A stretch of DNA of 64,000 nucleotides from Eledone cirrhosa (lineage: Eukaryota), in the NCBI GenBank assembly GCA_964016885.1, contig OZ024764.1:20770001-20834000 (forward strand), in the 5' to 3' direction. Position 1 is the stretch's first letter; each line of letters begins with the position of its first letter. Positions 1 to 57,895 of this stretch are shown one piece after another. The notes under the pieces are model-generated. The model made no database searches. It saw only the letters and a list, made by a program, of their open reading frames with translations, and was not told the origin of the DNA. The translations under genes were made by a program, and so were the position numbers.

Positions 1-3000
1 GCCACTAATAACTACTTTTATCAGTCAGTATAATCTAATGTCACTAATAACTACTTTTATCTGTCAGTATAATCTAAAGTCACTAATAACTACTTTTATC
101 AGTCAGTATAATCTAACGTCACTAATAACTACTTTTATCAGTCAGTATAATCTAATCTCACTAATAACTACTTTTATCAGTCAGTTCAATCTAATGTCAC
201 TAATAACTACTTTTATCAGTCAGTATAATCTAATTTCACTAATAACTACTTTTATCAGTCAGTATAATCTAATGTCACTAATAACTACTTTTATCAGTCA
301 GTATAATCTAATGTCACTAATAACTACTTTTATCAGTCAGTATAATCTAATGTCACTAATAACTACTTTTATCAGTCAGTATAATCTAATGTCACTAATA
401 ACTACTTTTATCAGTCAGTATAATCTAATGTCACTAATAACTACTTTTATCAGTCAGTATAATCTAATGTCACTAATAACTACTTTTATCAGTCAGTATA
501 ATCTAAAGTCACTAATAACTACTTTTATCAGTCAGTATAATCTAATGTCACTACTAACTACTTTTATCAGTCAGTATAATCTAATGTCACTAATAACTAC
601 TTTTATCAGTCAGTTTAATCTAATGTCACTAATAACTACTTTTATCAGTCAGTATAATCTAATGTCACTAATAACTACTTTTATCAGTCAGTATAATCTA
701 ATGTCACTAATAACTACTTTTATCAGTCAGTATAATCTAATGTCACTAATAACTACTTTTATCAGTCAGTATAATCTAATGTCACTAATAACTACTTTTA
801 TCAGTCAGTATAATCTAACGTCACTAATAACTACTTTTATCAGTCAGTATAATCTAATCTCACTAATAACTACTTTTATCAGTCAGTTCAATCTAATGTC
901 ACTAATAACTACTTTTATCAGTCAGTATAATCTAATTTCACTAATAACTACTTTTATCAGTCAGTATAATCTAATGTCACTAATAACTACTTTTATCAGT
1001 CAGTATAATCTAATGTCACTAATAACTACTTTTATCAGTCAGTATAATCTAATGTCACTAATAACTACTTTTATCAGTCAGTATAATCTAATGTCACTAA
1101 TAACTACTTTTATCAGTCAGTATAATCTAATGTCACTAATAACTACTTTTATCAGTCAGTATAATCTAATGTCACTAATAACTACTTTTATCAGTCAGTA
1201 TAATCTAAAGTCACTAATAACTACTTTTATCAGTCAGTATAATCTAATGTCACTACTAACTACTTTTATCAGTCAGTATAATCTAATGTCACTAATAACT
1301 ACTTTTATCAGTCAGTTTAATCTAATGCCACTAATAACTACTTTTATCAGTCAGTATAATCTAATGTCACTAATAACTACTTTTATCTGTCAGTATAATC
1401 TAAAGTCACTAATAACTACTTTTATCAGTCAGTATAATCTAATGTCACTAATAACTACTTTTATCAGTCAGTTTAATCTAATCTCACTAATAACTACTTT
1501 TATCAGTCAGTTTAATCTAATGTCACTAATAACTACTTTTACCAGTCAGTTTAATCTAATGTCACTAATAACTACTTTTATCAGTCAGTTTAATCTAATG
1601 TCACTAATAACTACTTTTATCAGTCAGTTTAATCTAATCTCACTAATAACTACTTTTATCAGTCAGTATAATCTAATGTCACTAATAACTACTTTTATCA
1701 GTCAGTATAATCTAATGTCACTAATAACTACTTTTATCAGTCAGTTTAATCTAATGTCACTAATAACTACTTTTATCAGTCAGTTTAATCTAATGTCACT
1801 AATAACTACTTTTACCAGTCAGTTTAATCTAATGTCACTAATAACTACTTTTATCAGTCAGTATAATCTAATGTCACTAATAACTACTTTTATCAGTCAG
1901 TTTAATCTAATGTCACTAATAACTACTTTTATCAGTCAGTTTAATCTAATCTCACTAATAACTACTTTTATCAGTCAGTTTAATCTAATGTCACTAATAA
2001 CTACTTTTATCAGTCAGTTTAATCTAATCTCACTAATAACTACTTTTATCAGTCAGTTTAATCTAATGTCACTAATAACTACTTTTATCAGTCAGTTTAA
2101 TCTAATCTCACTAATAACTACTTTTATCAGTGAGTATAATCTAATGTCACTAATAACTACTTTTATCAGTCAGTTTAATCTAATCTCACTAATAACTACT
2201 TTTATTAGTCAGTTTAATATAATGTCACTAATAACTACTTTTATCAGTCAGTATAATCTAATCTCACTAATAACTACTTTTATCAGTCAGTATAATCTAA
2301 TGTCACTAATAACTACTTTTATCAGTCAGTTTAATCTAATGTCACTAATAACTACTTTTATTAGTCAGTTTAATATAATGTCACTAATAACTACTTTTAT
2401 CAGTCAGTTTAATCTAATCTCACTAATAACTACTTTTATTAGTCAGTTTAATATAATGTCACTAATAACTACTTTTATCAGTCAGTTTAATCTAATCTCA
2501 CTAATAACTACTTTTATTTGTCAGTTTAATATAATCTCACTAATAACTACTTTTATCAGTCAGTATAATCTAATGTCACTAATAACTACTTTTATCAGTC
2601 AGTATAATCTAATGTCACTAATAACTACTTTTATCAGTCAGTATAATCTAATGTCACTAATAACTACTTTTATCAGTCAGTTTAATCTAATGTCACTAAT
2701 AACTACTTTTATCAGTCAGTATAATCTAATGTCACTAATAACTACTTTTATCAGTCAGTATAATCTAATGTCACTAATAACTACTTTTATCAGTCAGTAT
2801 AATCTAATGTCACTAATAACTACTTTTATCAGTCAGTATAATCTAATGTCACTAATAACTACTTTTATCAGTCAGTATAATCTAATGTCACTAATAACTA
2901 CTTTTATCAGTCAGTATAATCTAATGTCACTAATAACTACTTTTATCAGTCAGTATAATCTAATGTCACTAATAACTACTTTTATCAGTCAGTATAATCT

Positions 3001-6000
3001 AATGTCACTAATAACTACTTTTATCAGTCAGTATAATCTAATGTCACTAATAACTACTTTTATCAGTCAGTATAATCTAATGTCACTAATAACTACTTTT
3101 ATCAGTCAGTATAATCTAATGTCACTAATAACTACTTTTATCAGTCAGTATAATCTAACGTCACTAATAACTACTTTTATCAGTCAGTATAATCTAATCT
3201 CACTAATAACTACTTTTATCAGTCAGTTCAATCTAATGTCACTAATAACTACTTTTATCAGTCAGTATAATCTAATTTCACTAATAACTACTTTTATCAG
3301 TCAGTATAATCTAATGTCACTAATAACTACTTTTATCAGTCAGTATAATCTAATGTCACTAATAACTACTTTTATCAGTCAGTATAATCTAATGTCACTA
3401 ATAACTACTTTTATCAGTCAGTTTAATCTAATCTCACTAATAACTACTTTTATCAGTCAGTTTAATCTAATCTCACTAATAACTACTTTTATCAGTCAGT
3501 TTAATCTAATCTCACTAATAACTACTTTTATCAGTCAGTATAATCTAATCTCACTAATAACTACTTTTATCAGTCAGTATAATCTAATGTCACTAATAAC
3601 TACTTTTATCAGTCAGTTTAATCTAATCTCACTAATAACTACTTTTATCAGTCAGTTTAATCTAATCTCACTAATAACTACTTTTATCAGTCAGTTCAAT
3701 CTAATGTCACTAATAACTACTTTTATCAGTCAGTATAATCTAATTTCACTAATAACTACTTTTATCAGTCAGTATAATCTAATGTCACTAATAACTACTT
3801 TTATCAGTCAGTATAATCTAATGTCACTAATAACTACTTTTATCAGTAAGTATAATCTAATCTCACTAATAACTACTTTTATCAGTCAGTTCAATCTAAT
3901 GTCACTAATAACTACTTTTATCAGTCAGTATAATCTAATTTCATTAATAACTACTTTTATCAGTCAGTATAATCTAATGTCACTAATAACTACTTTTATC
4001 AGTCAGTATAATCTAATGTCACTAATAACTACTTTTATCAGTCAGTTTAATCTAATCTCACTAATAACTACTTTTATCAGTCAGTATAATCTAATCTCAC
4101 TAATAACTACTTTTATCAGTCAGTATAATCTAATGTCACTAATAACTACTTTTATCAGTCAGTTTAATCTAATCTCACTAATAACTTCTTTTATCAGTCA
4201 GTTTAATCTAATGTAACTAATAACTACTTTTATCAGTCAGTATAATCTAATCTCACTAATAACTACTTTTATCAGTCAGTTTAATCTAATCTCACTAATA
4301 ACTACTTTTATCTGTCAGTTTAATCTAATATAACTAATAACTACTTTTATCAGTTAGTTTAATCTAATCTCACTAATTACTTTTATCAGTCAGTTTAATC
4401 TAATCTCACTAATAACTACTTTTATCAGTCAGTATAATCTAATGTCACTAATAACTACTTTTATCAGTCAGTATAATCTAATCTCACTAATAACTACTTT
4501 TATCAGTCAGTATAATCTAAAGTCACTAATAACTACTTTTATCAGTCAGTATAATCTAATGTCACTAATAACTACTTTTATCAGTCAGTTTAATCTAAAG
4601 TCACTAATAACTACTTTTATCAGTCAATATAATCTAATGTCACTAATAACTACTTTTATCAGTCAGTATAATCTAATGTCACTAATAACTACTTTTATCT
4701 GTCAGTATAATCTAAAGTCACTAATAACTACTTTTATCAGTCAATATAATCTAATGTCACTAATAACTACTTTTATCAGTCAGTTTAATCTAAAGTCACT
4801 AATAACTACTTTTATCAGTCAATATAATCTAATGTCACTAATAACTACTTTTATCAGTCAGTTTAATCTAATGTCACTAATAACTACTTTTATCAGTCAA
4901 TATAATCTAATGTCACTAATAACTACTTTTATCAGTCAGTTTAATCTAAAGTCACTAATAACTACTTTTATCAGTCAGTATAATCTAATGTCACTAATAA
5001 CTACTTTTATCAGTCAATATAATCTAATGTCACTAATAACTACTTTTATCAGTCAGTATAATCTAATGTCACTAATAACTACTTTTATCTGTCAGTATAA
5101 TCTAAAGTCACTAATAACTACTTTTATCAGTCAATATAATCTAATGTCACTAATAACTACTTTTATCAGTCAGTATAATCTAATGTCACTAATAACTACT
5201 TTTATCAGTCAATATAATCTAATGTCACTAATAACTACTTTTATCAGTCAGTTTAATCTAATGTCACTAATAACTACTTTTATCAGTCAATATAATCTAA
5301 TGTCACTAATAACTACTTTTATCAGTCAGTATAATCTAATGTCACTAATAACTACTTTTATCTGTCAGTATAATCTAAAGTCACTAATAACTACTTTTAT
5401 CAGTCAATATAATCTAATGTCACTAATAACTACTTTTATCAGTCAGTTTAATCTAATGCCACTAATAACTACTTTTATCAGTCAGTATAATCTAATGTCA
5501 CTAATAACTACTTTTATCTGTCAGTATAATCTAAAGTCACTAATAACTACTTTTATCAGTCAGTATAATCTAATGTCACTAATAACTACTTTTATCAGTC
5601 AGTTTAATCTAATGCCACTAATAACTACTTTTATCAGTCAGTTTAATCTAATGTCACTAATAACTACTTTTATCAGTCAGTTTAATCTAATGTCACTAAT
5701 AACTACTTTTATCAGTCAGTTTAATCTAATGTAGCTAATAACTACTTTTATCAGTCAGTTTAATCTAATCTCACTAATAACTACTTTTATCAGTCAGTTT
5801 AATCTAATGTCACTAATAACTACTTTTATCAGTCAGTTTAATCTAATCTCACTAATAACTACTTTTATCAGTCAGTTTAATCTAATGTCACTAATAACTA
5901 CTTTTATCAGTCAGTTTAATCTAATCTCACTAATAACTACTTTTATCAGTCAGTTTAATCTAATGTCACTAATAACTACTTTTATCAGTCAGTTTAATCT

Positions 6001-9000
6001 CATCTCACTAATAACTACTTTTATTAGTCAGTTTAATATAATGTCACTAATAACTACTTTTATCAGTCAGTTTAATCTAATCTCACTAATAACTACTTTT
6101 ATTAGTCAGTTTAATATAATGTCACTAATAACTACTTTTATCAGTCAGTATAATCTAATCTCACTAATAACTACTTTTATCAGTGAGTATAATCTAATGT
6201 CACTAATAACTACTTTTATCAGTCAGTATAATCTAATCTCACTAATAACTACTTTTATCAGTCAGTATAATCTAATGTCACTAATAACTACTTTTATCAG
6301 TCAGTTTAATCTAATGTCACTAATAACTACTTTTATTAGTCAGTTTAATATAATGTCACTAATAACTACTTTTATCAGTCAGTTTAATCTAATCTCACTA
6401 ATAACTACTTTTATTAGTCAGTTTAATATAATGTCACTAATAACTACTTTTATCAGTCAGTTTAATCTAATCTCACTAATAACTACTTTTATTAGTCAGT
6501 TTAATATAATGTCACTAATAACTACTTTTATCAGTCAGTATAATCTAATGTCACTAATAACTACTTTTATCAGTCAGTATAATCTAATGTCACTAATAAC
6601 TACTTTTATCAGTCAGTATAATCTAATGTCACTAATAACTACTTTTATCAGTCAGTATAATCTAATGTCACTAATAACTACTTTTATCAGTCAGTATAAT
6701 CTAATGTCACTAATAACTACTTTTATCAGTCAGTATAATCTAACGTCACTAATAACTACTTTTATCAGTCAGTATAATCTAATCTCACTAATAACTACTT
6801 TTATCAGTCAGTTCAATCTAATGTCACTAATAACTACTTTTATCAGTCAGTATAATCTAATTTCACTAATAACTACTTTTATCAGTCAGTATAATCTAAT
6901 GTCACTAATAACTACTTTTATCAGTCAGTATAATCTAATGTCACTAATAACTACTTTTATCAGTCAGTATAATCTAATGTCACTAATAACTACTTTTATC
7001 AGTCAGTATAATCTAATGTCACTAATAACTACTTTTATCAGTCAGTATAATCTAATGTCACTAATAACTACTTTTATCAGTCAGTATAATCTAATGTCAC
7101 TAATAACTACTTTTATCAGTCAGTATAATCTAATGTCACTAATAACTACTTTTATCAGTCAGTATAATCTAATGTCACTAATAACTACTTTTATCAGTCA
7201 GTATAATCTAACGTCACTAATAACTACTTTTATCAGTCAGTATAATCTAATCTCACTAATAACTACTTTTATCAGTCAGTTCAATCTAATGTCACTAATA
7301 ACTACTTTTATCAGTCAGTATAATCTAATTTCACTAATAACTACTTTTATCAGTCAGTATAATCTAATGTCACTAATAACTACTTTTATCAGTCAGTATA
7401 ATCTAATGTCACTAATAACTACTTTTATCAGTCAGTATAATCTAATGTCACTAATAACTACTTTTATCAGTCAGTTTAATCTAATCTCACTAATAACTAC
7501 TTTTATCAGTCAGTATAATCTAATCTCACTAATAACTACTTTTATCAGTCAGTATAATCTAATGTCACTAATAACTACTTTTATCAGTCAGTTTAATCTA
7601 ATCTCACTAATAACTACTTTTATCAGTCAGTTTAATCTAATGTAACTAATAACTACTTTTATCAGTCAGTATAATCTAATCTCACTAATAACTACTTTTA
7701 TCAGTCAGTTTAATCTAATCTCACTAATAACTACTTTTATCAGTCAGTTTAATCTAATCTCACTAATAACTACTTTTATCAGTCAGTATAATCTAATCTC
7801 ACTAATAACTACTTTTATCAGTCAGTATAATCTAATGTCACTAATAACTACTTTTATCAGTCAGTTTAATCTAATCTCACTAATAACTACTTTTATCAGT
7901 CAGTTTAATCTAATCTCACTAATAACTACTTTTATCAGTCAGTTCAATCTAATGTCACTAATAACTACTTTTATCAGTCAGTATAATCTAATTTCACTAA
8001 TAACTACTTTTATCAGTCAGTATAATCTAATGTCACTAATAACTACTTTTATCAGTCAGTATAATCTAATGTCACTAATAACTACTTTTATCAGTAAGTA
8101 TAATCTAATCTCACTAATAACTACTTTTATCAGTCAGTTCAATCTAATGTCACTAATAACTACTTTTATCAGTCAGTATAATCTAATTTCACTAATAACT
8201 ACTTTTATCAGTCAGTATAATCTAATGTCACTAATAACTACTTTTATCAGTCAGTATAATCTAATGTCACTAATAACTACTTTTATCAGTCAGTTTAATC
8301 TAATCTCACTAATAACTACTTTTATCAGTCAGTATAATCTAATCTCACTAATAACTACTTTTATCAGTCAGTATAATCTAATGTCACTAATAACTACTTT
8401 TATCAGTCAGTTTAATCTAATCTCACTAATAACTTCTTTTATCAGTCAGTTTAATCTAATGTAACTAATAACTACTTTTATCAGTCAGTATAATCTAATC
8501 TCACTAATAACTACTTTTATCAGTCAGTTTAATCTAAAGTCACTAATAACTACTTTTATCAGTCAATATAATCTAATGTCACTAATAACTACTTTTATCA
8601 GTCAGTATAATCTAATGTCACTAATAACTACTTTTATCTGTCAGTATAATCTAAAGTCACTAATAACTACTTTTATCAGTCAATATAATCTAATGTCACT
8701 AATAACTACTTTTATCAGTCAGTATAATCTAATGTCACTAATAACTACTTTTATCAGTCAATATAATCTAATGTCACTAATAACTACTTTTATCAGTCAG
8801 TTTAATCTAATGTCACTAATAACTACTTTTATCAGTCAATATAATCTAATCTCACTAATAACTACTTTTATTAGTCAGTTTAATATAATGTCACTAATAA
8901 CTACTTTTATCAGTCAGTTTAATCTAATCTCACTAATAACTACTTTTATCAGTCAGTATAATCTAATCTCACTAATAACTACTTTTATCAGTGAGTATAA

Positions 9001-12000
9001 TCTAATGTCACTAATAACTACTTTTATCAGTCAGTTTAATCTAATCTCACTAATAACTACTTTTATTAGTCAGTTTAATATAATGTCACTAATAACTACT
9101 TTTATCAGTCAGTATAATCTAATCTCACTAATAACTACTTTTATCAGTCAGTATAATCTAATGTCACTAATAACTACTTTTATCAGTCAGTTTAATCTAA
9201 TGTCACTAATAACTACTTTTATTAGTCAGTTTAATATAATGTCACTAATAACTACTTTTATCAGTCAGTTTAATCTAAAGTCACTAATAACTACTTTTAT
9301 CAGTCAGTATAATCTAATCTCACTAATAACTACTTTTATCAGTCAGTTTAATCTAATCTCACTAATAACTACTTTTATCTGTCAGTTTAATCTAATGTCA
9401 CTAATAACTACTTTTATCAGTCAGTATAATCTAATCTCACTAATAACTACTTTTATCAGTCAGTATAATCTAAAGTCACTAATAACTACTTTTATCAGTC
9501 AGTATAATCTAATGTCACTAATAACTACTTTTATCAGTCAGTATAATCTAATCTCACTAATAACTACTTTTATCAGTCAGTATAATCTAATGTCACTAAT
9601 AACTACTTTTATCAGTCAGTTTAATCTAATCTCACTAATAACTACTTTTATCAGTCAGTTTAATCTAATCTCACTAATAACTACTTTTATCAGTCAGTTC
9701 AATCTAATGTCACTAATAACTACTTTTATCAGTCAGTATAATCTAATGTCACTAATAACTACTTTTATCAGTCAGTATAATCTAATGTCACTAATAACTA
9801 CTTTTATCAGTAAGTATAATCTAATCTCACTAATAACTACTTTTATCAGTCAGTTCAATCTAATGTCACTAATAACTACTTTTATCAGTCAGTATAATCT
9901 AATTTCACTAATAACTACTTTTATCAGTCAGTATAATCTAATGTCACTAATAACTACTTTTATCAGTCAGTATAATCTAATGTCACTAATAACTACTTTT
10001 ATCAGTCAGTATAATCTAATGTCACTAATAACTACTTTTATCAGTCAGTTTAATCTAATCTCACTAATAAATACTTTTATCAGTCAGTATAATCTAATCT
10101 CACTAATAACTACTTTTATCAGTCAGTGTAATCTAATGTCACTAATAACTACTTTTATCAGTCAGTTTAATCTAATCTCACTAATAACTTCTTTTATCAG
10201 TCAGTTTAATCTAATGTAACTAATAACTACTTTTATCAGTCAGTATAATCTAATCTCACTAATAACTACTTTTATCAGTCAGTTTAATCTAATCTCACTA
10301 ATAACTACTTTTATCTGTCAGTTTAATCTAATGTCACTAATAACTACTTTTATCAGTCAGTATAATCTAATCTCACTAATAACTACTTTTATCAGTCAGT
10401 ATAATCTAAAGTCACTAATAACTACTTTTATCAGTCAGTATAATCTAATGTCACTAATAACTACTTTTATCAGTCAGTTTAATCTAAAGTCACTAATAAC
10501 TACTTTTATCAGTCAATATAATCTAATGTCACTAATAACTACTTTTATCAGTCAGTATAATCTAATGTCACTAATAACTACTTTTATCTGTCAGTATAAT
10601 CTAAAGTCACTAATAACTACTTTTATCAGTCAATATAATCTAATGTCACTAATAACTACTTTTATCAGTCAGTATAATCTAATGTCACTAATAACTACTT
10701 TTATCAGTCAATATAATCTAATGTCACTAATAACTACTTTTATCAGTCAGTTTAATCTAATGTCACTAATAACTACTTTTATCAGTCAATATAATCTAAT
10801 GTCACTAATAACTACTTTTATCAGTCAGTTTAATCTAAAGTCACTAATAACTACTTTTATCAGTCAGTATAATCTAATGTCACTAATAACTACTTTTATC
10901 AGTCAGTATAATCTAATGTCACTAATAACTACTTTTATCAGTCAGTATAATCTAATGTCACTAATAACTACTTTTATCAGTCAATATAATCTAATGTCAC
11001 TAATAACTACTTTTATCAGTCAGTTTAATCTAAAGTCACTAATAACTACTTTTATCAGTCAGTATAATCTAATGTCACTAATAACTACTTTTATCAGTCA
11101 ATATAATCTAATGTCACTAATAACTACTTTTATCAGTCAGTATAATCTAATGTCACTAATAACTACTTTTATCTGTCAGTATAATCTAAAGTCACTAATA
11201 ACTACTTTTATCAGTCAATATAATCTAATGTCACTAATAACTACTTTTATCAGTCAGTATAATCTAATGTCACTAATAACTACTTTTATCAGTCAATATA
11301 ATCTAATGTCACTAATAACTACTTTTATCAGTCAGTTTAATCTAATGTCACTAATAACTACTTTTATCAGTCAATATAATCTAATGTCACTAATAACTAC
11401 TTTTATCAGTCAGTATAATCTAATGTCACTAATAACTACTTTTATCTGTCAGTATAATCTAAAGTCACTAATAACTACTTTTATCAGTCAATATAATCTA
11501 ATGTCACTAATAACTACTTTTATCAGTCAGTTTAATCTAATGTCACTAATAACTACTTTTATCAGTCAGTATAATCTAATGTCACTAATAACTACTTTTA
11601 TCAGTCAGTTTAATCTAATGCCACTAATAACTACTTTTATCAGTCAGTATAATCTAATGTCACTAATAACTACTTTTATCTGTCAGTATAATCTAAAGTC
11701 ACTAATAACTACTTTTATCAGTCAGTATAATCTAATGTCACTACTAACTACTTTTATCAGTCAGTATAATCTAATGTCACTAATAACTACTTTTATCAGT
11801 CAGTTTAATCTAATGCCACTAATAACTACTTTTATCAGTCAGTATAATCTAATGTCACTAATAACTACTTTTATCTGTCAGTATAATCTAAAGTCACTAA
11901 TAACTACTTTTATCAGTCAGTATAATCTAATGTCACTAATAACTACTTTTATCAGTCAGTTTAATCTAATGCCACTAATAACTACTTTTATCAGTCAGTT

Positions 12001-15000
12001 TAATCTAATGTCACTAATAACTACTTTTATCAGTCAGTTTAATCTAATGTCACTAATAACTACTTTTATCAGTCAGTTTAATCTAATGTAGCTAATAACT
12101 ACTTTTATCAGTCAGTTTAATCTAATCTCACTAATAACTACTTTTATCAGTCAGTTTAATCTAATGTCACTAATAACTACTTTTATCAGTCAGTTTAATC
12201 TAATCTCACTAATAACTACTTTTATCAGTCAGTTTAATCTAATGTCACTAATAACTACTTTTATCAGTCAGTTTAATCTAATCTCACTAATAACTACTTT
12301 TATCAGTCAGTTTAATCTAATGTCACTAATAACTACTTTTATCAGTCAGTTTAATCTCATCTCACTAATAACTACTTTTATTAGTCAGTTTAATATAATG
12401 TCACTAATAACTACTTTTATCAGTCAGTTTAATCTAATCTCACTAATAACTACTTTTATTAGTCAGTTTAATATAATGTCACTAATAACTACTTTTATCA
12501 GTCAGTATAATCTAATCTCACTAATAACTACTTTTATCAGTGAGTATAATCTAATGTCACTAATAACTACTTTTATCAGTCAGTATAATCTAATCTCACT
12601 AATAACTACTTTTATCAGTCAGTATAATCTAATGTCACTAATAACTACTTTTATCAGTCAGTTTAATCTAATGTCACTAATAACTACTTTTATTAGTCAG
12701 TTTAATATAATGTCACTAATAACTACTTTTATCAGTCAGTTTAATCTAATCTCACTAATAACTACTTTTATTAGTCAGTTTAATATAATGTCACTAATAA
12801 CTACTTTTATCAGTCAGTTTAATCTAATCTCACTAATAACTACTTTTATTAGTCAGTTTAATATAATGTCACTAATAACTACTTTTATCAGTCAGTATAA
12901 TCTAATGTCACTAATAACTACTTTTATCAGTCAGTATAATCTAATGTCACTAATAACTACTTTTATCAGTCAGTATAATCTAATGTCACTAATAACTACT
13001 TTTATCAGTCAGTATAATCTAATGTCACTAATAACTACTTTTATCAGTCAGTATAATCTAATGTCACTAATAACTACTTTTATCAGTCAGTTCAATCTAA
13101 TGTCACTAATAACTACTTTTATCAGTCAGTATAATATAATGTCACTAATAACTACTTTTATCAGTCAGTATAATCTAATGTCACTAATAACTACTTTTAT
13201 CAGTCAGTATAATCTAATGTCACTAATAACTACTTTTATCAGTCAGTATAATCTAATGTCACTAATAACTACTTTTATCAGTCAGTATAATCTAATGTCA
13301 CTAATAACTACTTTTATCAGTCAGTATAATTTAATGTCACTAATAACTACTTTTATCAGTCAGTATAATCTAACGTCACTAATAACTACTTTTATCAGTC
13401 AGTATAATCTAATCTCACTAATAACTACTTTTATCAGTCAGTTCAATCTAATGTCACTAATAACTACTTTTATCAGTCAGTATAATCTAATTTCACTAAT
13501 AACTACTTTTATCAGTCAGTATAATCTAATGTCACTAATAACTACTTTTATCAGTCAGTATAATCTAATGTCACTAATAACTACTTTTATCAGTCAGTAT
13601 AATCTAATGTCACTAATAACTACTTTTATCAGTCAGTATAATCTAATGTCACTAATAACTACTTTTATCAGTCAGTATAATCTAATTTCACTAATAACTA
13701 CTTTTATCAGTCAGTATAATCTAATGTCACTAATAACTACTTTTATCAGTCAGTATAATCTAATCTCACTAATAACTACTTTTATCAGTCAGTATAATCT
13801 AATGTCACTAATAACTACTTTTATCAGTCAGTTTAATCTAATCTCACTAATAACTACTTTTATCAGTCAGTTTAATCTAATCTCACTAATAACTACTTTT
13901 ATCAGTCAGTTCAATCTAATGTCACTAATAACTACTTTTATCAGTCAGTATAATCTAATGTCACTAATAACTACTTTTATCAGTCAGTATAATCTAATGT
14001 CACTAATAACTACTTTTATCAGTAAGTATAATCTAATCTCACTAATAACTACTTTTATCAGTCAGTTCAATCTAATGTCACTAATAACTACTTTTATCAG
14101 TCAGTATAATCTAATTTCACTAATAACTACTTTTATCAGTCAGTATAATCTAATGTCACTAATAACTACTTTTATCAGTCAGTATAATCTAATGTCACTA
14201 ATAACTACTTTTATCAGTCAGTATAATCTAATGTCACTAATAACTACTTTTATCAGTCAGTTTAATCTAATCTCACTAATAAATACTTTTATCAGTCAGT
14301 ATAATCTAATCTCACTAATAACTACTTTTATCAGTCAGTGTAATCTAATGTCACTAATAACTACTTTTATCAGTCAGTTTAATCTAATCTCACTAATAAC
14401 TTCTTTTATCAGTCAGTTTAATCTAATGTAACTAATAACTACTTTTATCAGTCAGTATAATCTAATCTCACTAATAACTACTTTTATCAGTCAGTTTAAT
14501 CTAATCTCACTAATAACTACTTTTATCTGTCAGTTTAATCTAATGTCACTAATAACTACTTTTATCAGTCAGTATAATCTAATCTCACTAATAACTACTT
14601 TTATCAGTCAGTATAATCTAAAGTCACTAATAACTACTTTTATCAGTCAGTATAATCTAATGTCACTAATAACTACTTTTATCAGTCAGTTTAATCTAAA
14701 GTCACTAATAACTACTTTTATCAGTCAATATAATCTAATGTCACTAATAACTACTTTTATCAGTCAGTATAATCTAATGTCACTAATAACTACTTTTATC
14801 TGTCAGTATAATCTAAAGTCACTAATAACTACTTTTATCAGTCAATATAATCTAATGTCACTAATAACTACTTTTATCAGTCAGTATAATCTAATGTCAC
14901 TAATAACTACTTTTATCAGTCAATATAATCTAATGTCACTAATAACTACTTTTATCAGTCAGTTTAATCTAATGTCACTAATAACTACTTTTATCAGTCA

Positions 15001-18000: not shown

Positions 18001-18188
18001 TCAGTATAATCTAATCTCACTAATAACTACTTTTATCAGTCAGTTTAATCTAATCTCACTAATAACTACTTTTATCAGTCAGTTTAATCTAATCTCACTA
18101 ATAACTACTTTTATCAGTCAGTATAATCTAATCTCACTAATAACTACTTTTATCAGTCAGTATAATCTAATGTCACTAATAACTACTT
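1..18188. repeat. 39-bp tandem satellite, left arm (consensus TCACTAATAACTACTTTTATCAGTCAGTATAATCTAATG); continues beyond window start
   Basis: Uninterrupted 39-bp periodicity with a few recurrent variant positions and one 36-bp unit (~4370); ~466 units. Confidence 0.99.
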
Positions 18189-19662
18189 CTCTGCTAAAAT
18201 GTACCACTAGAGCTGATTCAAATTTTCCCAGCCAGCCATCCACCTAATCTACGAAGGTATTTTAGCCTACATATTGTCGTTAATATTATGATGTTCCCTG
18301 CTGCATTAGCGTTAAATTTTCCCTGCTGTATTAGCGATAAATTTTCGAGGGTTTCTCTTAGTAGCTTTTTCATGTCGTTAATATTATGATGTTCCCTGCT
18401 GTATTAGCGTTAAATTTTCCCTGCTGTATTAGCGATAAATTTTCGAGGGTTTCTCTTAGTAGCTTTTTCATGTCGTTAATATTATGATGTTCCCTGCTGT
18501 ATTAGCGTTAAATTTTCCCTGCTGTATTAGCGATAAATTTTCGAGGGTTTCTCTTAGTAGCTTTTTTCATGACGTTATTATTGTTAATTTTACTGATGTA
18601 GTATTAACTTATTAACTTGGATATTTACCATGCGGTATTCTAATCCTATTGTATCTCTCTCAGTTATTTACCATGCGACCCTCAGTTCCTACCCCCCCCC
18701 CCCCTCTATGCACTTCTTTAAGGCTTACTACCCTGTCTTTAACCTAATTCATTCAATCTGAAAATATTGAAGAGATAAGACACTTTGCCATTCTTCTCTG
18801 CTAAAATGTACCACTAGAGCTGATTCAAATTTTCCCAGCCAGCCATCCACCTAATCTACGAAGGTATTTTAGCCTACATATTGTCGTTAATATTATGATG
18901 TTCCCTGCTGTATTAGCGTTAAATTTTCCCTGCTGTATTAGCGATAAATTTTCGAGGGTTTCTCTTAGTAGCTTTTTCATGTCGTTAATATTATGATGTT
19001 CCCTGCTGTATTAGCGTTAAATTTTCCCTGCTGTATTAGCGATAAATTTTCGAGGGTTTCTCTTAGTAGCTTTTTTCATGACGTTATTATTGTTAATTTT
19101 ACTGATGTAGTATTAACTTATTAACTTGGATATTTACCATGCGGTATTCTAATCCTATTGTATCTCTCTCAGTTATTTACCATGCGACCCTCAGTTCCTA
19201 CCCCCCCCCCCCCCCTCTATGCACTTCTTTAAGGCTTACTACCCTGTCTTTAACCTAATTCATTCAATCTGAAAATATTGAAGAGATAAGACACTTTGCC
19301 ATTCTTCTCTGCTAAAATGTACCACTAGAGCTGATTCAAATTTTCCCAGCCAGCCATCCACCTAATCTACGAAGGTATTTTAGCCTACATATTGTCGTTA
19401 ATATTATGATGTTCCCTGCTGTATTAGCGTTAAATTTTCCCTGCTGTATTAGCGATAAATTTTCGAGGGTTTCTCTTAGTAGCTTTTTCATGTCGTTAAT
19501 ATTATGATGTTCCCTGCTGTATTAGCGTTAAATTTTCCCTGCTGTATTAGCGATAAATTTTCGAGGGTTTCTCTTAGTAGCTTTTTTCATGACGTTATTA
19601 TTGTTAATTTTACTGATGTAGTATTAACTTGGATATTTACCATGCGACCCTCAGTTCCTACC
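18189..19662 (+). repeat. Tandem monomers in the LINE 5' region (607 bp, 511 bp and a partial third), each containing 98-bp subrepeats
   Basis: CTCTGCTAAAATGTACC starts at 18189, 18796 and 19307. TGTCGTTAATATTATGATG recurs at 18275, 18373 and 18471 (98-bp spacing). Confidence 0.92.
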
Positions 19663-45702: not shown

Positions 45703-48700
45703 AAAGCTATCTCACCGCTTTTCATAGGCGCCGCTAAATTCCACTGCTGGTCTCTCCTCTCCCACGTGCGTCCAACTCCTTAACACCGGGAGCTGCCAAA
45801 ACTCGCGTCCACACCGTTGCTGGTCACCACTAAGAGGGCCATCTGCTGGCCCTCCCGGTCGAGCATCCTTCCGGTCGAGCACTCCCCCGCTTCCGGCCAC
45901 CGCACGCCACACCATACCCCCCCCCCCCCGATCTCAAGGATCAATTTCCTCCTCGTCCGTCTACATATGAAAGTCTGCTGTCCAGGTTGGTGGTTTACGA
46001 CTTCTTTGCGAGATCCGCAGTGTTGGGGCAGCACTTTGGGTTTCCTCTACCTCGGAGTCCGTTGACACAGTGATTCTACGGACATCCAGGACATGACGTG
46101 GAACTCCGTCCATGGACACATTGTTCTGGGAATTTACGGCCGTCACTGTTCCCCTTCCCCATTGAGATGTGCAACGTGCATCTGGGGGCTTAACCCAGAC
46201 TTCCTCACCCACCTGCACGGGTGCCACCACTCGTATCTGAATACTGCTCTGTGTGGCACCGATTCCTCGACCTGTCCCATCCGAGGGGACATGTTGTACC
46301 AGAACACTGCCTCCATTGGTGAGATATGACCCCGCTCCGCCATTGCCTTGATCGTCTGGTGGTGTCGCTCCACAATTCCATTCCCGCTCGGCATGTGCGC
46401 TGCTCTGAAGAAACGGTCCACCTTCCATCCATCGAGCATCTCCCTCAGCGCCTCCGAGCGGAACGCTGCGCTGTTGTCCATCAGCAGTTCGTCCACAGGG
46501 CCCCGCTCCAAGAACACCTCTCTCAACGTCCGCATGATTTCCTCGGCCGTTCCAGTCTTCATCTCCCTCCATATCGCCTTCCGTCCTGGTCCACAGTCGA
46601 CCATCGAGAGGTATGTTCCCTGTCGGTAGTGCGTTACATCCACCGCCAATCGTTTCCAGTCGCGATCCACTGGGAGGCTTCCCGTTTCGTGTACACCCGG
46701 GGTGGATCAATGGACTGACATCGGATGCAGCCTCTAACCACCCTTTGAACACTGTGACTGTTAACGTCCGAGTCGATTCTCCTGGCTAGGAACAGGCTCC
46801 TATCCACTGCCATGTGGTGCATGTCATGCAACCCTTTCAGATCCGACTCGGTCAGCCGACACACGGCAGCTATCTCATCTTCTACCTCCTCCGGCGCTTC
46901 CATCCAGGCTTTCTTCACCCTAGTTAAGATGTCCGCCCTATTTTTCTCTGAGGGCACGAAAACTACGCTCAGCCTCAGAACGAACTCGGTGGCCAGCTCT
47001 CCTAAAGTTCCCAGGCGGCGCTTTATCAGCATCTCCGCCGCGCCTCTCGTTCGCACTCTCTTCTCACTGGTGAGCACTGATCTCACCCATCCGAGTACAG
47101 TAGCCGAGTCGGTGCGTATCTCGATGGTGCGCAGTCCCCACCTCAGGGCGAGGTTCACCCCTCTCAACACTCCGTCCAGTTCGGCCACATTGATGCATCC
47201 TCGACCTCAACACCTCCTATCTCCAACGTGACACCCAGCGCTATGCTGCTGGCATCGCACCATACGGTCCCGCTCTGTGATTTGGGAACATACCAGCGTC
47301 GCCGCACTGGGTCGTCGGCTTTCACCCTCCCCACGATCTCCTGCATCATGGCCACCGTCCTCTCTCCCACTCGTCTCTTGACATAGCTGCATGCCGTCCG
47401 GAGCCACCCAGCAATCGGGTAGTGACCCACCAACTTTCCACACACCGAGAAAAGCTCCCGCCTACTCATACTTGGGCCCAGTTCTGGAACTTCATTTCCC
47501 CTCTGGAATACCAAGACGCCCGTCCTGTCTCGCCGTAGCCTAAGTCCCAGCGCGGCTCCTCCCTCCAACGCTTCTGACGGCTTCGCAGCCAGTCCATACC
47601 CCTGTAAATGGCTCGTGACCTCCGCCGCCGCCACCACAGACTCGTCCACTAGGATGTCGTCAATATAGGAGTTAGTGGCCCACTTCATCTTGTCGGCCTT
47701 TCCCAGAATGGTCTTGAGGACCGCCGCCATGATCTTCGGTGCGGAGCTCAGCCCGAATCCGAGCTTGGTCAGGCAATATGTCCGGCCCTTATACCTGACC
47801 AGCTGATACTGCCAGAGCTTCTCATCTATATGCAATTGCAAGTATGCCGACTTTAGATCTACGATTGCTGAAACCCCCGTCATGCGTCTCCACTCACGCA
47901 GGGTTTCCCCACAGACATCCGTGACCTCGCCACCCGTGTGGCATGACAGGTGCTCGTTCAGCTCCCGAAATTCCAGCACCGGCCTCACCTTGTTCTTCGT
48001 GGGTTGCGCCACCGCCATTAACGGCAATACTCTGCACTTCACCTCCTCTTTCCAGGGAAGCAGTATGCCCTCCTCAATCCATCTCTCTACCTCGCTCCTA
48101 ATAGTTTCCTTTCAATGTGTGTTGATAGCAGCCCACTTTGGTCTTCAGTGTTGGTGGTTCTCCCTTCCAGTACCACTCAACAACCCATCGAACACGGCCT
48201 TGAAGTCTTTGTCCTGCACAGTGTAAGCGGGGTATTTCTCCTCGTGGGCCTTCTGGTTGTCCTGTCGCGCACTCACAGCGCATACCGATGCAGCGGCGCC
48301 AAACGACACACCGACGCCTCCTAGACGGCCAATTGCGTCCATGCCCATAGCCACGCCGATCCCATCCACCTTACTTTCCTTCCCCGTACCGCTATTTCCA
48401 TCTCGCTGCGATCTCAGCATTCAATTTTCCTGCCGTCGACTGCCCTTACACTGCTCTTCCCTCTCCACCTCTGCGCCATCAGTGTCGTCAAACAGCCCGT
48501 GTCCACGAGTGCTCGCTGTGGCTTTCCCCTCACGAAGACTTCCACCACGGGCAGCGCCTCTACTCGTAAGGGGAAACTACCGGCGCAGTAGTTCCCCTTG
48601 GATTGTTTCCCTGGTCGCAGTTAATACCGGTAGCATATTATTTCCAGCCTTGACTCTCTGCAGGCTCTAGCCATGTGCGGTCCCTGGCACCAAAAACAGC

Positions 48701-49636
48701 GACCCCTAAACGTTCGCGGTTGCCTCCCTTTCACTGCCAGCTGTCTTAAGCCTCTGTAGTTGCTATCGCTGCAACACTCTTCTTGGCATCTTCTGCTATG
48801 ATCCAGGCTTGTTCCACCAGTGAATGCATTTCCATTTCTTTGTAACCCGGGACTTGCTGCAGTTTCACCGCTTTGTCGTCTGGAAATCCATTTAAGAACG
48901 CCAACCGCACCGTGCATTCGCATTCCACCTGATATCCAGCCAACATGGCCAATCGCCGTATTTCCGCTGCGAAAATTTCAACGCGTTCACCGTTCCATCT
49001 AATTCTTGCTAGCTTAGCGAAAGCGGCTAACGGTCCCTCTGCGAACGCTTCCATCATGCGCCTCTCAATCTTTTGCGCATCTCTTTCGCTGTGTTCGTCC
49101 AACTCAAGGAAGAGTACCAACGCGTCCCCCTCGAGGTACAGTGCCATGAGGCCAGCCACATCTTCTATCTTCTGCAAGCTTGCGACCAGCCGGACTTTTC
49201 GCAGCCAAGCGACATCAACTACCCCGGTAAATGCCCTGATAGCTTCGCTTGTTCGTAGTCTTGTCGCCATCTTCTAATTTGTCTTGCGGTACGTGATAAA
49301 AAAAAAACAACAGACTCCTCTTTGTTTTTCCAGTAGCTTTATTTATTTATTTTTTTTCAATCAGATCTCAGTTTCCAGTGCCGAAATAGCTTGTGGTTAG
49401 AAAAAGCTATCTCACCGCTTTTCATAGGCGCCGCTAAATTCCACTGCTGGTCTCTCCTCTCCCACGTGCATCCAACTCCTTAACACCGGGAGATGCCAAA
49501 ACTCGCGTCTACACCGTTGCTGGTCACCACTAGAGAGGGCCATCTGCTGGCCCTTCCGGTCGAGCATCCTTCCGGCCAAGCACCCTTCCGGTCGAGCAAT
49601 CCCCCGCTTCCGGCCACCGCACGCCACACCATACCC
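45703..49636 (-). mobile_element. Degenerate Gypsy/Ty3 LTR retrotransposon (gag, partial protease region, RT, RNase H, integrase)
   Basis: Direct repeats 45703-45919 and 49403-49636; poly-G PPT before the 3' copy. gag ORF 48746-49270, Zn knuckle CFWCQGPHMARAC, RT VDLKSAY/FGLSSAP/YIDD, RNase H WCDAS, integrase LAVDVTH..MDNSAAF..GNGIVER. Multiple frameshifts. Confidence 0.9.
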
Positions 49637-49681: not shown

Positions 49682-49826
49682 TTACGTCACAAAAAAACTT
49701 GACCTTTGACATTGAAGCATGCGCAGTGATGCAGTTGTCGACTTCCTGTCCACGTGTTAGTCTTCCTACAACATCATTTAGAAAACATTTCTGTAAATAC
49801 TAAACACCTGAGACTATAATGTAAGT
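49682..49826 (+). promoter_or_regulatory. Candidate promoter, non-coding first exon and splice donor of ZNF gene 2
   Basis: Within 75 bp: TTACGTCA (CRE-like, 49682), TGACCTTTGACAT (nuclear-receptor DR1-like, 49700), GCATGCGCA (NRF1-like, 49717), ACTTCCTG (ETS, 49741), CACGTG (E-box, 49751). Then AAT|GTAAGT at 49821. Confidence 0.6.
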
Positions 49827-54133: not shown

Positions 54134-56390
54134 TTCTCTCTCAACTCATCTATGCTTGGTCGTTGATGCACATTGACATTGCACATCCAACGGAGCATAC
54201 TTGCTTCATTTCTCTCCAGCCATCGCATATCCTCCACAGTTGCTGTCCATGTCTCACTACCATGCAGCATCACACATCTCACGCAGGCATCACCAGCCAT
54301 TCATTCTTAGGGAGAAACCCTTCTTTGTCAACAGAGGAAGCAGCTCCCTAAATGTCTTCCAACCTGTCCTTATTCTAGATACTATGGTCTCACAACACCC
54401 TCCCCCCTTGTGCTAATCTGATCACCTAGGTATCAGAAGCTATCAACCACCTCTGTAGATCCTACCTGCATTTGAAAAATGTGTCTCACTGCAACTTCTA
54501 CTGTCAAATTTCCCTGTACATCTACTGCATATGTAGTTTTGCGTACCTGTTAGTTTGCCTGCTATCCCACTACATTTCTTGTGTACCCAAAATCTGCATT
54601 GTGTACATTATAGAATTTATGCCAGTTCCTTTTCTACATATTGAACAAGGCCATTTCCCTGATGGAATGACAGTTTTGTCCTCTTTTCTATTCATCAACA
54701 CTTTAGTCTTAGCTAGGTTCACTCTCAGTCCTCTTGATTCCAACTGCTGTTGCAATAGCCAGAATTTATTCTCTAGCTCCTCTCCTGATTCTGCTATAAG
54801 AACCATATCGTCAGCATAGAGAAGTTCCCATGGGCACCTAGTCTTAAACTCCTCTGTTATGACTTGGAGGACTATAATGAACAAGAGCGGGCTGAGGACC
54901 GAAACCTGATGTACTCCTGCATCTGTAATTCCTCACTAAACTCCATGCCTACCCTCACTTTACTGACAGCACCTCTGTACATAGCTTGCACTGTCTTCAC
55001 AAGCCATTCCTCTACACCTAGTTTCCTTAGGGACCACCAGATGACAGATTGGGGTACTCTATCAAAGGCCTTCTCTAGGTCAACAAAAACTAAGTATAGT
55101 GGTTTTCTTCTCTAAGAACCTCTCTTGTAGTTGTCTCACTAAGAAGAGGGCATCTGTTTGACTCTTTCTCTAAGTTGCGCTAGTATTCTTTCTGTCACTT
55201 TCATAACCTGATCCATCAGTTTTATGCCCTTATAATTACTCCCCTCCAGAACATCCCCTTTACCTTTACCTCAATTTATGAGAATACTGCTGCACCAGTC
55301 TTTGGGTATGACACCACCATATATAGCTTGATTAATGATGCATGCAACCAGTTTAATTCCTACTTCTCTTGATGCCTTCAGCATCTTAGCAACTATCCCC
55401 AACAGTCCAGCGGACTTACCATTTTCATTTCCTTAATTGGACCCTATAGTCGTCAATCTCAATAGCTGGTCCTTCTGTCGGGTCTTCTGAAGGTAGTTTC
55501 TCTCCTATTCATTCTCCACATTCATCAGTCTCTCATAATGACATTTCCAGGCCTCCTTTTTTTTGAGAATCAGTGACACTAAGTGCACCAACATCCTGAT
55601 TTACACTGACACACTGCCTTGCAATGTGGATCACCGCACATCTCTGATCTCCCCATCGCAGGACATTGGCAAACCTTCTACTCTCAGCCTCCCTGCATGT
55701 TAAGTAGGCCTGACATCTAGCTTCTCTCTTAGCGGCTGTGAATCGGTCTCTACCCCTACCATTTTCCAAGCCTTTTGTCTCTAATGGCTCTATCTACCTT
55801 GCTGTTCCACCACCAGGTCACTCTCTGTCTGGTTGGAGCTCTGCTCCAGCCACAGGTTTCAGTAACCTGCAGTAAGTTGTTACGTAAGAAATTCCAGTTA
55901 TCATCTATGTCATACGACTCTAAATCGTCTTCCTTTTAGTCATACACATCTTGAAGGGCTTTCCTGAATTCATATTTTAGTGAAAGGTCTTTTAGTTTCC
56001 AGACCTTCCTTTTTCACACTTTCTTGTATGTCTCACTTTGTCTCTTGCTTACTGAGATGTCACTAACGAATTACCTATGTTGGGGGGGTTACACTGTTCC
56101 TTGGGATATGCCTTAGTATTTGGCACCATCTGTCTCTCTTACTACCTAACTAGGACGAAGTCAATCTGTCTCATGTGCACACCTGATTGGTAGGTAATTA
56201 GGTGGTTGGTAGGTTTCTTTAAGTATTGCAAATGGTTAGTTCACTTGCATCACAAAATACAAGAAGCCTCACTCCTTCTTCATTTCTTGAGCCATAACCA
56301 TGACCACCATGTACCCCAGTGTATCCATCCTGGAGCTGTCCAACATGACCATTGAAGTCCCCTGCTATTATAACTAGGTCTCTGTCATTG
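54134..56390 (-). mobile_element. Degraded RTE LINE of a related subfamily (APE-RT-PHD region)
   Basis: Minus strand: [57 protein letters not shown]; many frameshifts. Confidence 0.85.
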
Positions 56391-56419
56391 AGGTTATCTC
56401 TACTTATTCTTTTTCTACA

Positions 56420-56723
56420 TATGGAGCAGGGCTACTTTCCTGAAGGGGTCAGGGTCTTCTCTCCTATCCATTAGCACTTTAGTTTTGGCTAAGTATATTC
56501 TCAGAACTTACCATTTCAAATTCTATATCTATAGTTGGTCATCTACATAGAGAAGTTTCCATAGACAGCCAGTCTTAAACCTCTCTGTTATGGCTTGGAG
56601 AACTATGATGAACAACAGTGGGCTAAGAACTAAACCATGATGAACTCCTACCTGTACCTTCAATTCTTCACTAGACACTTTACTGACAGCTTCTCACAAC
56701 CCATTCTTCTACACCTAATTTCT
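56420..56723 (-). mobile_element. Further degraded RTE RT fragment
   Basis: Minus strand [38 protein letters not shown]. Confidence 0.75.
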
Positions 56724-56727
56724 TTAA

Positions 56728-56935
56728 CCTTTTAGTATATAAACTGGCCATATCTGGCCAGAATTCTCTCACATCTTTCTGTTCAAACTGGCTGTAACTG
56801 GTCACTTATACTTATGTTAAGGTATTGTTCTCAAAATAAGTAACATCAAAATCTCATAGATTTGATATTATGTGAGATAAAGCATTTACTGTGAAAATAT
56901 AATAGTAAATATAGAGTAATGTGAATACTAAAGGG
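56728..56935. mobile_element. piggyBac-like MITE with TTAA target duplication
   Basis: TTAA|CCTTTTAGTAT ... ATACTAAAGGG|TTAA. Confidence 0.75.
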
Positions 56936-56945
56936 TTAATCTGAG

Positions 56946-57895
56946 GTCACTAATAACTACTTTTATCAGTCAGTTTAATCTACTGCCACTAATAACTACT
57001 TTTATCAGTCACTTTAATCTAATGTCACTAATAACTACTTTTATCAGTCAGTTTAATCTAATGTCACTAATAACTACTTTTATCAGTCAGTTTAATCTAA
57101 TCTCACTAATAACTACTTTTATCAGTCAGTCTAATCTAATGTCACTAATAACTACTTTTATCAGTCAGTTTAATCTACTGCCACTAATAACTACTTTTAT
57201 CAGTCACTTTAATCTACTGTCACTAATAACTACTTTTATCAGTCAGTTTAATCTAATGTCACTAATAACTACTTTTATCAGTCAGTATAATCTAATGTCA
57301 CTAATAACTACTTTTATCAGTCAGTATAATCTAATGTCACTAATAACTACTTTTATCAGTCAGTATAATCTAATGTCACTAATAACTACTTTTATCAGTC
57401 AGTTTAATCTAAAGTCACTAATAACTACTTTTATCAGTCAGTATAATCTAATGTCACTAATAACTACTTTTATCAGTCAGTATAATCTAATGTCACTAAT
57501 AACTACTTTTATCAGTCAGTTTAATCTAATGTCACTAATAACTACTTTTATCAGTCAGTATAATCTAAAGCCACTAATAACTACTTTTATCAGTCAGTAT
57601 AATCTAAAGTCACTAATAACTACTTTTATCAGTCAGTTTAATCTAATGTCACTAATAACTACTTTTATCAGTCAGTATAATCTAAAGTCACTAATAACTA
57701 CTTTTATCAGTCAGTTTAATCTAATGTCACTAATAACTACTTTTATCAGTCAGTATAATCTAATGTCACTAATAACTACTTTTATCAGTCAGTATAATCT
57801 AACGTCACTAATAACTACTTTTATCAGTCAGTTCAATCTAATGTCACTAATAACTACTTTTATCAGTCAGTTTAATCTAATGTCACTAATAACTA
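56946..57895. repeat. Short array (~24 units) of the same 39-bp repeat
   Basis: Same consensus and the same right junction (TAATAACTA|ACCTATG) as at 36809. Confidence 0.98.

What the first reader, a model, noticed from the sequence alone, without database searches (positions are those of the whole stretch)
1..57895. The same intronic 39-bp repeat has ~24 units in one ZNF paralog and >800 units in its neighbour
Seen: both arrays end at an identical junction 144 bp upstream of the same splice acceptor (36809/36953 and 57895/58039). The short array is ~950 bp; the long one is >31 kb with higher-order structure. Inference: a gene-internal minisatellite grew into a satellite block (>30-fold) after a recent duplication, which would turn a ~8-kb 5'UTR intron into a >37-kb one. 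This gives a natural paired comparison for satellite birth and for repeat-length effects on ZNF expression. The short array could instead be a contraction.
Basis: partly seen in the sequence, partly recalled or inferred. Interest (0 to 1): 0.75.

Follow-up and report, generated by a model that had tools for sequence, protein, structure and literature searches.

The report
Runaway intron repeats in zinc-finger cluster
About 200 near-identical zinc-finger genes carry the same 39-base repeat at the same spot in their first intron, in 1 to over 4,000 copies; the repeat likely began inside a decayed jumping gene and likely ballooned on its own three or four times, giving a natural replicated test of how satellite DNA is born.

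Summary
Observation confirmed, and larger than reported. The long array runs 27.6 kb beyond the window: 1,518 units plus a young 5.1-kb LINE, making a 70.9-kb intron against 8.2 kb in the neighbour. The two genes are not a recent pair. They are two of about 200 paralogous C2H2 modules (95-100% identical) in a 4.7-Mb cluster, and the long-array gene's closest relative lies 2.6 Mb away with 64 units. Of 141 modules measured, the median is 12 units, 137 have 292 or fewer, and four have 1,518-4,234. The four giants fall in three separate clades (one origin rejected) and share no higher-order structure, so expansion was repeated and local. At least 24 bp of the unit and the 3' flank match an antisense LINE endonuclease fragment; a TTAA-flanked MITE caps the 5' end. 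One contig from an RNA-like run joins the predicted donor and acceptor across the array site (family level only). Each ingredient has precedent; the replicated series was not found in 9 literature searches. Read support for array length and effects on expression are untested. The scan noted an intronic minisatellite and ZNF paralogs elsewhere in this genome, not this series.

The parts
3..18188 (+). Long 39-bp array, 5' block (466 units in the window; 1,173 in all, starting at G000:C25:20,742,438 at the same MITE junction as the short array)
18189..23334 (+). Young full-length LINE (RTE-type; label recalled) inserted inside one repeat unit: three ~510-610-bp 5' monomers, one ORF, (GAT)n tail, no target-site duplication seen, microhomology at both ends
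   Evidence: 40 of 40 listed genomic matches to a 1,281-bp part are ~100% identical
19903..23025 (+). Open LINE frame, 1,040 codons stop to stop: endonuclease, reverse transcriptase, PHD-like finger
23335..36809 (+). Long array, 3' block (345 units), with a 5,883-bp (151-unit) near-duplicate differing at 10 positions
36786..36873 (-). Decayed antisense LINE endonuclease fragment running from the unique flank into the last repeat unit: the likely seed of the 39-mer
   Evidence: tblastn 59% over 27 aa, E 1.6e-5 in a small local set; 82% over 74 bp to a dispersed LINE copy (L067)
36954..38883 (+). ZNF1 exon 2: acceptor at 36953/36954, 817-nt 5'UTR, ORF 37771-38883 (370 aa, 13 C2H2 fingers)
   Evidence: acceptor use at family level
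45703..49636 (-). Decayed LTR-retrotransposon-like insertion just upstream of the ZNF2 promoter region (terminal repeats 90.6% alike); absent from neighbouring modules
49690..49820 (+). ZNF2 predicted promoter and non-coding exon 1, donor GT at 49821; homologue of ZNF1 has its donor at C25:20,736,064 (window -33,936)
   Evidence: joint
54135..56720 (-). Decayed antisense LINE fragments shared by many modules
56724..56939 (.). TTAA-flanked MITE with short terminal inverted repeats; its right TTAA is the first TTAA of the array and fixes the 5' edge
   Evidence: dispersed relatives at 78-79%
56936..57895 (+). Short 39-bp array, 24 units
58040..60303 (+). ZNF2 exon 2: acceptor at 58039/58040, ORF 58852-60303 (483 aa, 17 fingers)

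Best explanation
The 39-bp repeat sits at the same intron position in about 200 paralogous zinc-finger genes, likely arose by a short tandem duplication inside a decayed antisense LINE fragment, and likely grew into 59-166-kb satellites independently three or four times by repeated local block duplication, with no function required. Steps: (1) inferred: a LINE fragment lying 144 bp before the acceptor gave the seed; (2) shown: a TTAA MITE bounds the 5' edge in most modules; (3) shown: the whole module (promoter region, exon 1, LINE scraps, MITE, array, coding exon) was multiplied across 4.7 Mb; (4) shown: short arrays change slowly enough that close paralogs have similar lengths; (5) inferred: in a few copies duplication of multi-kilobase blocks (unequal exchange or replication-based re-copying) took over and multiplied the array 20- to 100-fold in less time than 0.4% flank divergence; (6) shown: a young LINE then landed in this array and has not been duplicated since; (7) inferred: the giant intron is still spliced, since the reading frames and splice sites are intact.
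For: 202 exact 3'-junction hits (8 of the 66 are off-cluster LINE copies) and 156 MITE-array junctions. 141 modules measured: median 12 units, 108 with 25 or fewer, 0 between 293 and 1,517, 4 giants. Giants need at least 3 changes on starred branches; one clade rejected, p-AU 3e-5, 64 rows. Longest identical unit run shared by any two of 9 arrays compared is 11; 0 of 39 informative 6-unit words of the sister array occur in the window giant, 10 of 949 between the two related giants. Window giant is nested among 15 modules of 10-64 units. Block duplication: exact runs of 79, 69, 63 units at offsets 120-151; another module has a 3,068-bp tandem duplication that carried a LINE scrap and four inverted units along. 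LINE seed: all 8 off-cluster junction hits lie in LINE endonuclease homology. Sister-length similarity: 20 reciprocal pairs, p 0.002; 12 non-giant, non-identical pairs, p 0.009. GT..AG joint in run X4, absent from X1-X3. All four giant genes have open frames of 315-703 aa.
Against: The closest relative of the 2,124-unit giant has 12 units, so giants do not always come from lineages with longer arrays; the other two giant clades have 64- and 80-unit sisters. Two giants (1,551 and 4,234) are close relatives, so one shared giant ancestor plus a contraction to 80 units is possible there. The tree rests on 981 bp from 64 of about 200 modules, chosen partly for long arrays, 22 of 58 inner branches are open, and gene conversion could mislead it. 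Only about 24 of the 39 bp are clearly LINE-like. The splice joint has 30 letters on its short side (the tool asks for 31), comes from one contig of a run whose kind is not on record, and was laid on a 1-unit paralog. No promoter homologue was found within 13 kb upstream of the 1,551-unit array. Neutrality is a default, not a result.
Confidence: 0.7

Rival explanations
1. Array length is functional: long arrays nucleate heterochromatin or delay transcription and so switch or time individual ZNF paralogs, and selection keeps some giants.
For: Precedent: VNTR length correlates with ZNF558 repression (10.1101/2020.08.18.255562, passages); satellite-filled introns are transcribed and need dedicated RNA-binding proteins in Drosophila (PMC6508621, abstract). 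All four giant genes keep open frames. No measured module lacks the repeat altogether (minimum 1 unit).
Against: No expression or chromatin data. Frames would stay open for a while without selection given how young the expansions are. Lengths vary freely from 1 to 292 among near-identical genes; several arrays are interrupted by transposons. Modules were found through the repeat junction or the flank, so repeat-free ones could be missed.
Confidence: 0.15
2. Long arrays are ancestral and most paralogs contracted by deletion.
For: In the 1,551/80/4,234 clade one gain plus one loss is as short a history as two gains. Fitch counts cannot tell gain from loss.
Against: 137 of 141 measured arrays have 292 units or fewer; giants share no higher-order words with each other or with their short sisters; the window giant is nested among 10-64-unit modules.
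Confidence: 0.07
3. The giants are assembly artefacts (false duplication), or short arrays are collapsed.
For: No spanning reads were examined. The 5,883-bp tandem block is 99.8% identical.
Against: The window array has 74 distinct unit types, 28 seen once, and no exact internal repeat longer than 79 units (3.1 kb); in the 4,234-unit array the longest is 125 units. The four giants have different variant spectra. The LINE splits one recurring unit motif cleanly. No N in the fetched blocks. Short arrays are heterogeneous and under 1 kb.
Confidence: 0.08

Closest known systems
Tandem repeats derived from LINE coding sequence (PROsat from L1 ORF2, chicken HinfI from CR1 ORF2, cetacean common satellite; review PMC9659126, passages and table)
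   Same: Repeat unit matches part of a LINE reading frame.
   Different: Here the seed is still in place with both boundaries, in an intron, and all stages from 1 unit to 4,234 units coexist at paralogous sites.
Beta-satellite blocks in the human 19p12 zinc-finger cluster (Eichler et al. 1998; only the title seen in reference lists; content recalled)
   Same: A tandem repeat multiplied together with a C2H2 gene cluster.
   Different: Recalled as blocks between genes; here the array is inside the first intron at a fixed distance from the acceptor and its length varies over 4,000-fold.
ZNF558 VNTR (10.1101/2020.08.18.255562, passages)
   Same: Copy-number-variable tandem repeat at a zinc-finger gene, a model for length-dependent silencing.
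   Different: 7,460-bp unit, downstream, one locus, compared between species; here 39-bp unit, intronic, about 200 loci in one genome; no expression effect shown.
Drosophila intron gigantism, kl-3 and kl-5 (PMC6508621, abstract and outline)
   Same: Satellite DNA inflates an intron of a coding gene.
   Different: Megabases of simple repeats on the Y; here 71-172 kb from promoter to exon 2, a 39-bp unit, and short-intron paralogs as controls.
Cephalopod C2H2 clusters (PMC9068888, PMC9795677, passages)
   Same: Large chromosomal clusters of C2H2 genes; the octopod identity of this genome is inferred, not established here.
   Different: The passages returned describe cluster size and position and no intronic repeat. 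Albertin et al. 2015 is recalled as reporting a 70-90-bp tandem repeat enriched near octopus C2H2 genes; it was not held, so an overlap with this repeat (78 bp = two units) could not be checked.
Euchromatic 1.688 and Rsp-like arrays in Drosophila (PMC7919458, passages)
   Same: Small and large arrays of one repeat family coexist and turn over fast.
   Different: Those spread to new sites; this repeat stays in its gene module, with one 1.7-unit orphan seen on another contig.

Membership tests
Minisatellite / VNTR | Head-to-tail unit of 10-100 bp with interspersed variant units | tested here: met
   39-bp unit, 12-150 variant types per array
Minisatellite / VNTR | Copy number varies between individuals | not testable with these tools
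   Only variation between paralogs in one assembly was measured
Satellite DNA | Arrays of tens to hundreds of kb with higher-order blocks | tested here: met
   59-166 kb; nested 90-190-unit blocks
Satellite DNA | Heterochromatic packaging | not testable with these tools
   No chromatin data
Transposon-derived tandem repeat | Unit and flank are homologous to a transposon | tested here: met
   Flank plus about 24 bp of the unit match antisense LINE endonuclease sequence
Transposon-derived tandem repeat | The whole unit traces to the element | tested here: inconclusive
   About 15 bp show no clear match in the 8 LINE copies examined
ZNF cluster with co-expanded satellite (19p12 type) | Repeat is duplicated as part of the gene module | tested here: met
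   Same 5' and 3' junctions at 156 and about 194 sites in one cluster
ZNF cluster with co-expanded satellite (19p12 type) | Repeat blocks lie between genes (feature recalled) | tested here: not met
   Array lies between the predicted donor and acceptor
Intron gigantism (Y-loop type) | Megabase satellite introns | tested here: not met
   70.9 kb for this gene; largest promoter-to-exon distance 172 kb
Intron gigantism (Y-loop type) | The satellite intron is transcribed and spliced out | tested here: inconclusive
   One GT..AG joint at family level; nothing specific to a giant gene
Length-dependent silencing VNTR (ZNF558 type) | Expression falls with repeat length | not testable with these tools
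   Only contigs available; depth does not rank paralogs
RTE-clade LINE (the insertion) | Single ORF with AP endonuclease and reverse transcriptase, short-repeat 3' tail | tested here: met
   Pfam Exo_endo_phos and RVT_1; (GAT)n tail
RTE-clade LINE (the insertion) | Groups with RTE elements in a reverse-transcriptase tree | not tested
   Label is recalled from the anatomy; PMC9115989 (passages) reports a finger-bearing RTE element in Octopus

The most novel reading that the evidence does not exclude
The cluster records a two-state switch in tandem-repeat evolution, replicated about 200 times from one seed: arrays drift as minisatellites below about 300 units, and any that tip into kilobase block duplication jump quickly to more than 1,500 units. 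The resulting 70-170-kb introns silence or delay individual zinc-finger paralogs, so that intron satellite length diversifies expression across a family that shares one promoter. The empty 293-1,517 range is unlikely under one power-law tail (P 0.003-0.016, post hoc). Each unit also holds a branch-point-like ACTAAY followed by a T-rich run and CAG (motif meaning recalled), so a giant intron could bind many splicing factors.
Probability: 0.2. Interest if true: 0.8.

Novelty: new variant of a known kind. Interest (0 to 1): 0.6.

Why it matters
How a short repeat becomes a satellite block is usually inferred from end states, because the birthplace is lost or there is only one. Here the seed, both boundaries and the host gene are held constant across about 200 sites, lengths span 1 to 4,234 units, and the jump to satellite size happened at least three times. 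That makes length-dependent growth models, a possible threshold, and the cost of a satellite intron to transcription and splicing directly testable with long reads and paralog-resolved RNA. It also corrects the control: compare each giant with its true sister, not its neighbour.

Tried and rejected
Neighbour as sister paralog: rejected. 'Every giant has a mid-sized sister', suggested by the 54-row tree: rejected when a genome search found a closer 12-unit relative. Giants as copies of one giant: rejected. Long frames on the array's + strand are a by-product of a 39-bp unit without stops in one frame; not treated as genes. The 605-bp CT..AC skip looked like an antisense intron but occurs in the DNA-like runs and in 14 of 84 junction sites as a deletion at a 3-bp microhomology. 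Read depth: the repeat bin was about 370 times deeper than a unique module contig in X1-X3, but the tool's figure is no copy number and cannot separate 4,000 from 13,000 units; not used. No RNA holder was listed. Other organisms: contigs of organism E (X8) match the unit at 95-100% and run on as repeat, and B, C and D have cover there, but shares were 0.04-0.07 and these runs may hold this species' DNA, so no outgroup inference was drawn. Array length was not tested with reads. Cluster edges: beyond 23.88 Mb only more diverged ZNF genes (about 80%) without this flank; no pre-repeat ancestor found. Sixteen modules with under 500 aligned flank bases were left out of the trees. Literature: 9 searches; none returned this repeat or a comparable paralog series; one search returned 0 papers. 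Albertin 2015 was not held and Eichler 1998 was seen only as a title; supplements of cephalopod genome papers were not read and could describe this repeat. Earlier-findings look-ups by sequence, near place and words returned nothing.

Full report
Observation. Tandem Repeats Finder reports a 39-bp array at 3-36809 and another at 56936-57895. Counting units directly gives 466 + 345 in the long array and 24 in the short one. The long array is split by a 5,146-bp insertion at 18189-23334. Both arrays end at the same junction 144 bp before an AG, and the following 1.2 kb is about 95% identical between the genes. Both genes have open C2H2 frames, 370 aa with 13 fingers and 483 aa with 17. The finding is accurate as far as the window shows.

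Beyond the window. The window is G000:C25:20,770,001-20,834,000 of a 3.0-Gb genome. The array starts at 20,742,438, giving 1,173 + 345 = 1,518 units, and begins at the same junction as the short array. A conserved segment with a GT donor lies upstream in every module where enough sequence was fetched, bar one noted below. It gives an intron of 8,219 bp for ZNF2 and 70,889 bp for ZNF1. Contigs of run X4 (kind not on record; depth enriched over the predicted exons) laid on a one-unit paralog show one joint that skips 4,166 bases with GT..AG ends, exactly at this donor and acceptor; runs X1-X3 do not show it. It has 30 letters on the short side and is not specific to either window gene. An octopod origin is inferred from the finger style, genome size and earlier scan notes; it was not established.

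Not a pair but a cluster. The 951-bp flank has 40 of 40 listed matches at 96-100% on the same contig. Exact junction patterns give 202 3' hits, of which 8 seen are off-cluster, and 156 5' hits; listed positions span about 19.13-23.88 Mb. Pairing listed junctions and reading fetched stretches gave lengths for 141 modules: median 12 units, 108 with 25 or fewer, 18 with 26-59, 11 with 60-300, none from 293 to 1,517, and four giants of 1,518, 1,551, 2,124 and 4,234 units. Some short lengths come from junction distance only and could include small insertions. The giants hold 7,665 of the 11,257 exact genome-wide hits to the unit's first 20 bases, leaving no room for a fifth giant.

History. In a tree of 64 flanks the four giants need at least three changes on starred branches, and one clade is rejected (p-AU 3e-5; also with 27 rows). 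ZNF1's sister is at 23,392,321 with 64 units, 8 differences in 981 bases; the neighbour differs by 4.1% and ranks 29th of 53. ZNF1 lies in a starred 16-row clade whose other members have 10-64 units, which favours expansion. Arrays share common single-unit variants but not their order: the longest shared identical run among 9 arrays is 11 units. Close paralogs have similar lengths (20 pairs, p 0.002). Against a simple ladder: the 2,124-unit giant's closest relative has 12 units. The sample was enriched for long arrays, 16 short-flank modules were dropped, and gene conversion is not excluded.

Growth mechanism. The unit string shows nested, imperfect blocks of 90-160 units; the longest exact internal repeat is 79 units and the youngest 5,883-bp pair differs at 10 positions. 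Another module has a 3,068-bp tandem duplication that includes a LINE scrap and four inverted units. This points to multi-kilobase block duplication in place; whether by unequal exchange or replication re-copying cannot be told. Only 28 of 1,518 units are unique types, so most units were copied recently relative to the split from the sister (inference). The inserted LINE has a 1,040-codon frame with endonuclease and reverse transcriptase, matches 40 of 40 listed copies at about 100%, is single in the array and is in the gene's sense orientation; it could supply a promoter or a premature end (untested). The size gap is unlikely under one power-law tail (P 0.003-0.016), but the test was chosen after seeing the data and about 60 modules are unmeasured.

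Origin of the unit. The minus strand of the 3' flank and the end of the last unit translates to a 27-residue match to the end of the LINE endonuclease domain (59%, E 1.6e-5 in a small local set), and a dispersed LINE copy matches 74 bp at 82%, reaching into the unit. All 8 off-cluster junction hits sit in the same LINE region. About 24 bp of the unit are thus LINE-like; the other 15 are unresolved. The 5' edge is a 216-bp element with TTAA ends whose right TTAA belongs to the first unit, with dispersed relatives; the piggyBac-like reading of these ends is recalled. Three related modules have a different 5' junction. The pre-repeat state was not found.

Artefact check. No spanning reads were available. 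Heterogeneity, distinct variant spectra in each giant, absence of N, and a LINE splitting a recurring motif make invention by an assembler unlikely; exact lengths could still be off by a block or two.

Comparison. LINE-derived satellites are known (PMC9659126, passages), as are a satellite co-expanded with a human ZNF cluster (Eichler 1998, title only), a VNTR tied to ZNF558 expression (bioRxiv 2020.08.18.255562, passages), satellite-filled giant introns (PMC6508621, abstract) and cephalopod C2H2 clusters (PMC9068888, PMC9795677, passages; PMC10547256, passages on ZNF clusters and repeats; PMC9115989, passages on an octopus RTE). Nine searches returned no report of this repeat or of such a paralog series; Albertin 2015 could not be read and may touch it. 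The case works like a transposon-born minisatellite turning into satellite; it is not a Y-loop-type or ZNF558-type system on the features tested.

Verdict. Real, richer than reported, and a new variant of known kinds. Best reading: LINE-seeded repeat carried by a duplicating gene module, with repeated local runaway and no function required (0.7). Interest 0.6, for the replicated natural experiment; a regulatory role would raise it but has no data.

Noticed in passing
window 18189-23334: Full-length LINE with an open 1,040-codon frame, three tandem 5' monomers each holding a 98-bp subrepeat, and at least 40 near-identical genomic copies: a very young family.
   Followed up: partly
window 45703-49636: Decayed LTR-type element inserted about 50 bp upstream of the conserved promoter-like segment of ZNF2 only.
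   Followed up: no
window 37115-37720 (L085 7778-8384): A 605-bp deletion at a 3-bp microhomology shortens the 817-nt 5'UTR exon part (17 upstream ATGs in ZNF1) in 14 of 84 junction sites examined; a similar jump appears in a contig of organism B.
   Followed up: partly
window 37015-37190: Part of the 5'UTR matches a very abundant TTAA-type element in other organisms' contigs: a second MITE remnant, inside the exon.
   Followed up: no
L044 (C25:20,626,142-20,630,173): Four inverted repeat units plus a LINE scrap inside a 152-unit array, duplicated as a 3,068-bp block; would form hairpins in the intron RNA.
   Followed up: partly
L073 (C3, near 262,364,970): An orphan of about 1.7 repeat units far from the cluster: a possible templated insertion and the only dispersal seen.
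   Followed up: partly
L013 (C25:20,740,361-20,742,300), also L090, L084, L107: A 1.9-kb fragment of another LINE family (543-codon reverse-transcriptase frame) inside ZNF1's MITE, shared with some relatives and inserted at other sites, including inside two arrays at TAA runs.
   Followed up: partly
L062 (C25:19,900,001-19,910,000): An unrelated complex AT-rich satellite with telomere-like subrepeats inside the cluster.
   Followed up: no
window 39460-39947, 41234-41896, 62833-63431: Further minisatellites (82, 48 and 71 bp) in the 3' part of the module also differ in copy number between paralogs; the 48-bp one matches the LINE's 3' end in antisense, a second LINE-born repeat.
   Followed up: no
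C25:20,487,001-20,500,000 (L130, L057): No promoter-like segment found within 13 kb upstream of the 1,551-unit array.
   Followed up: partly
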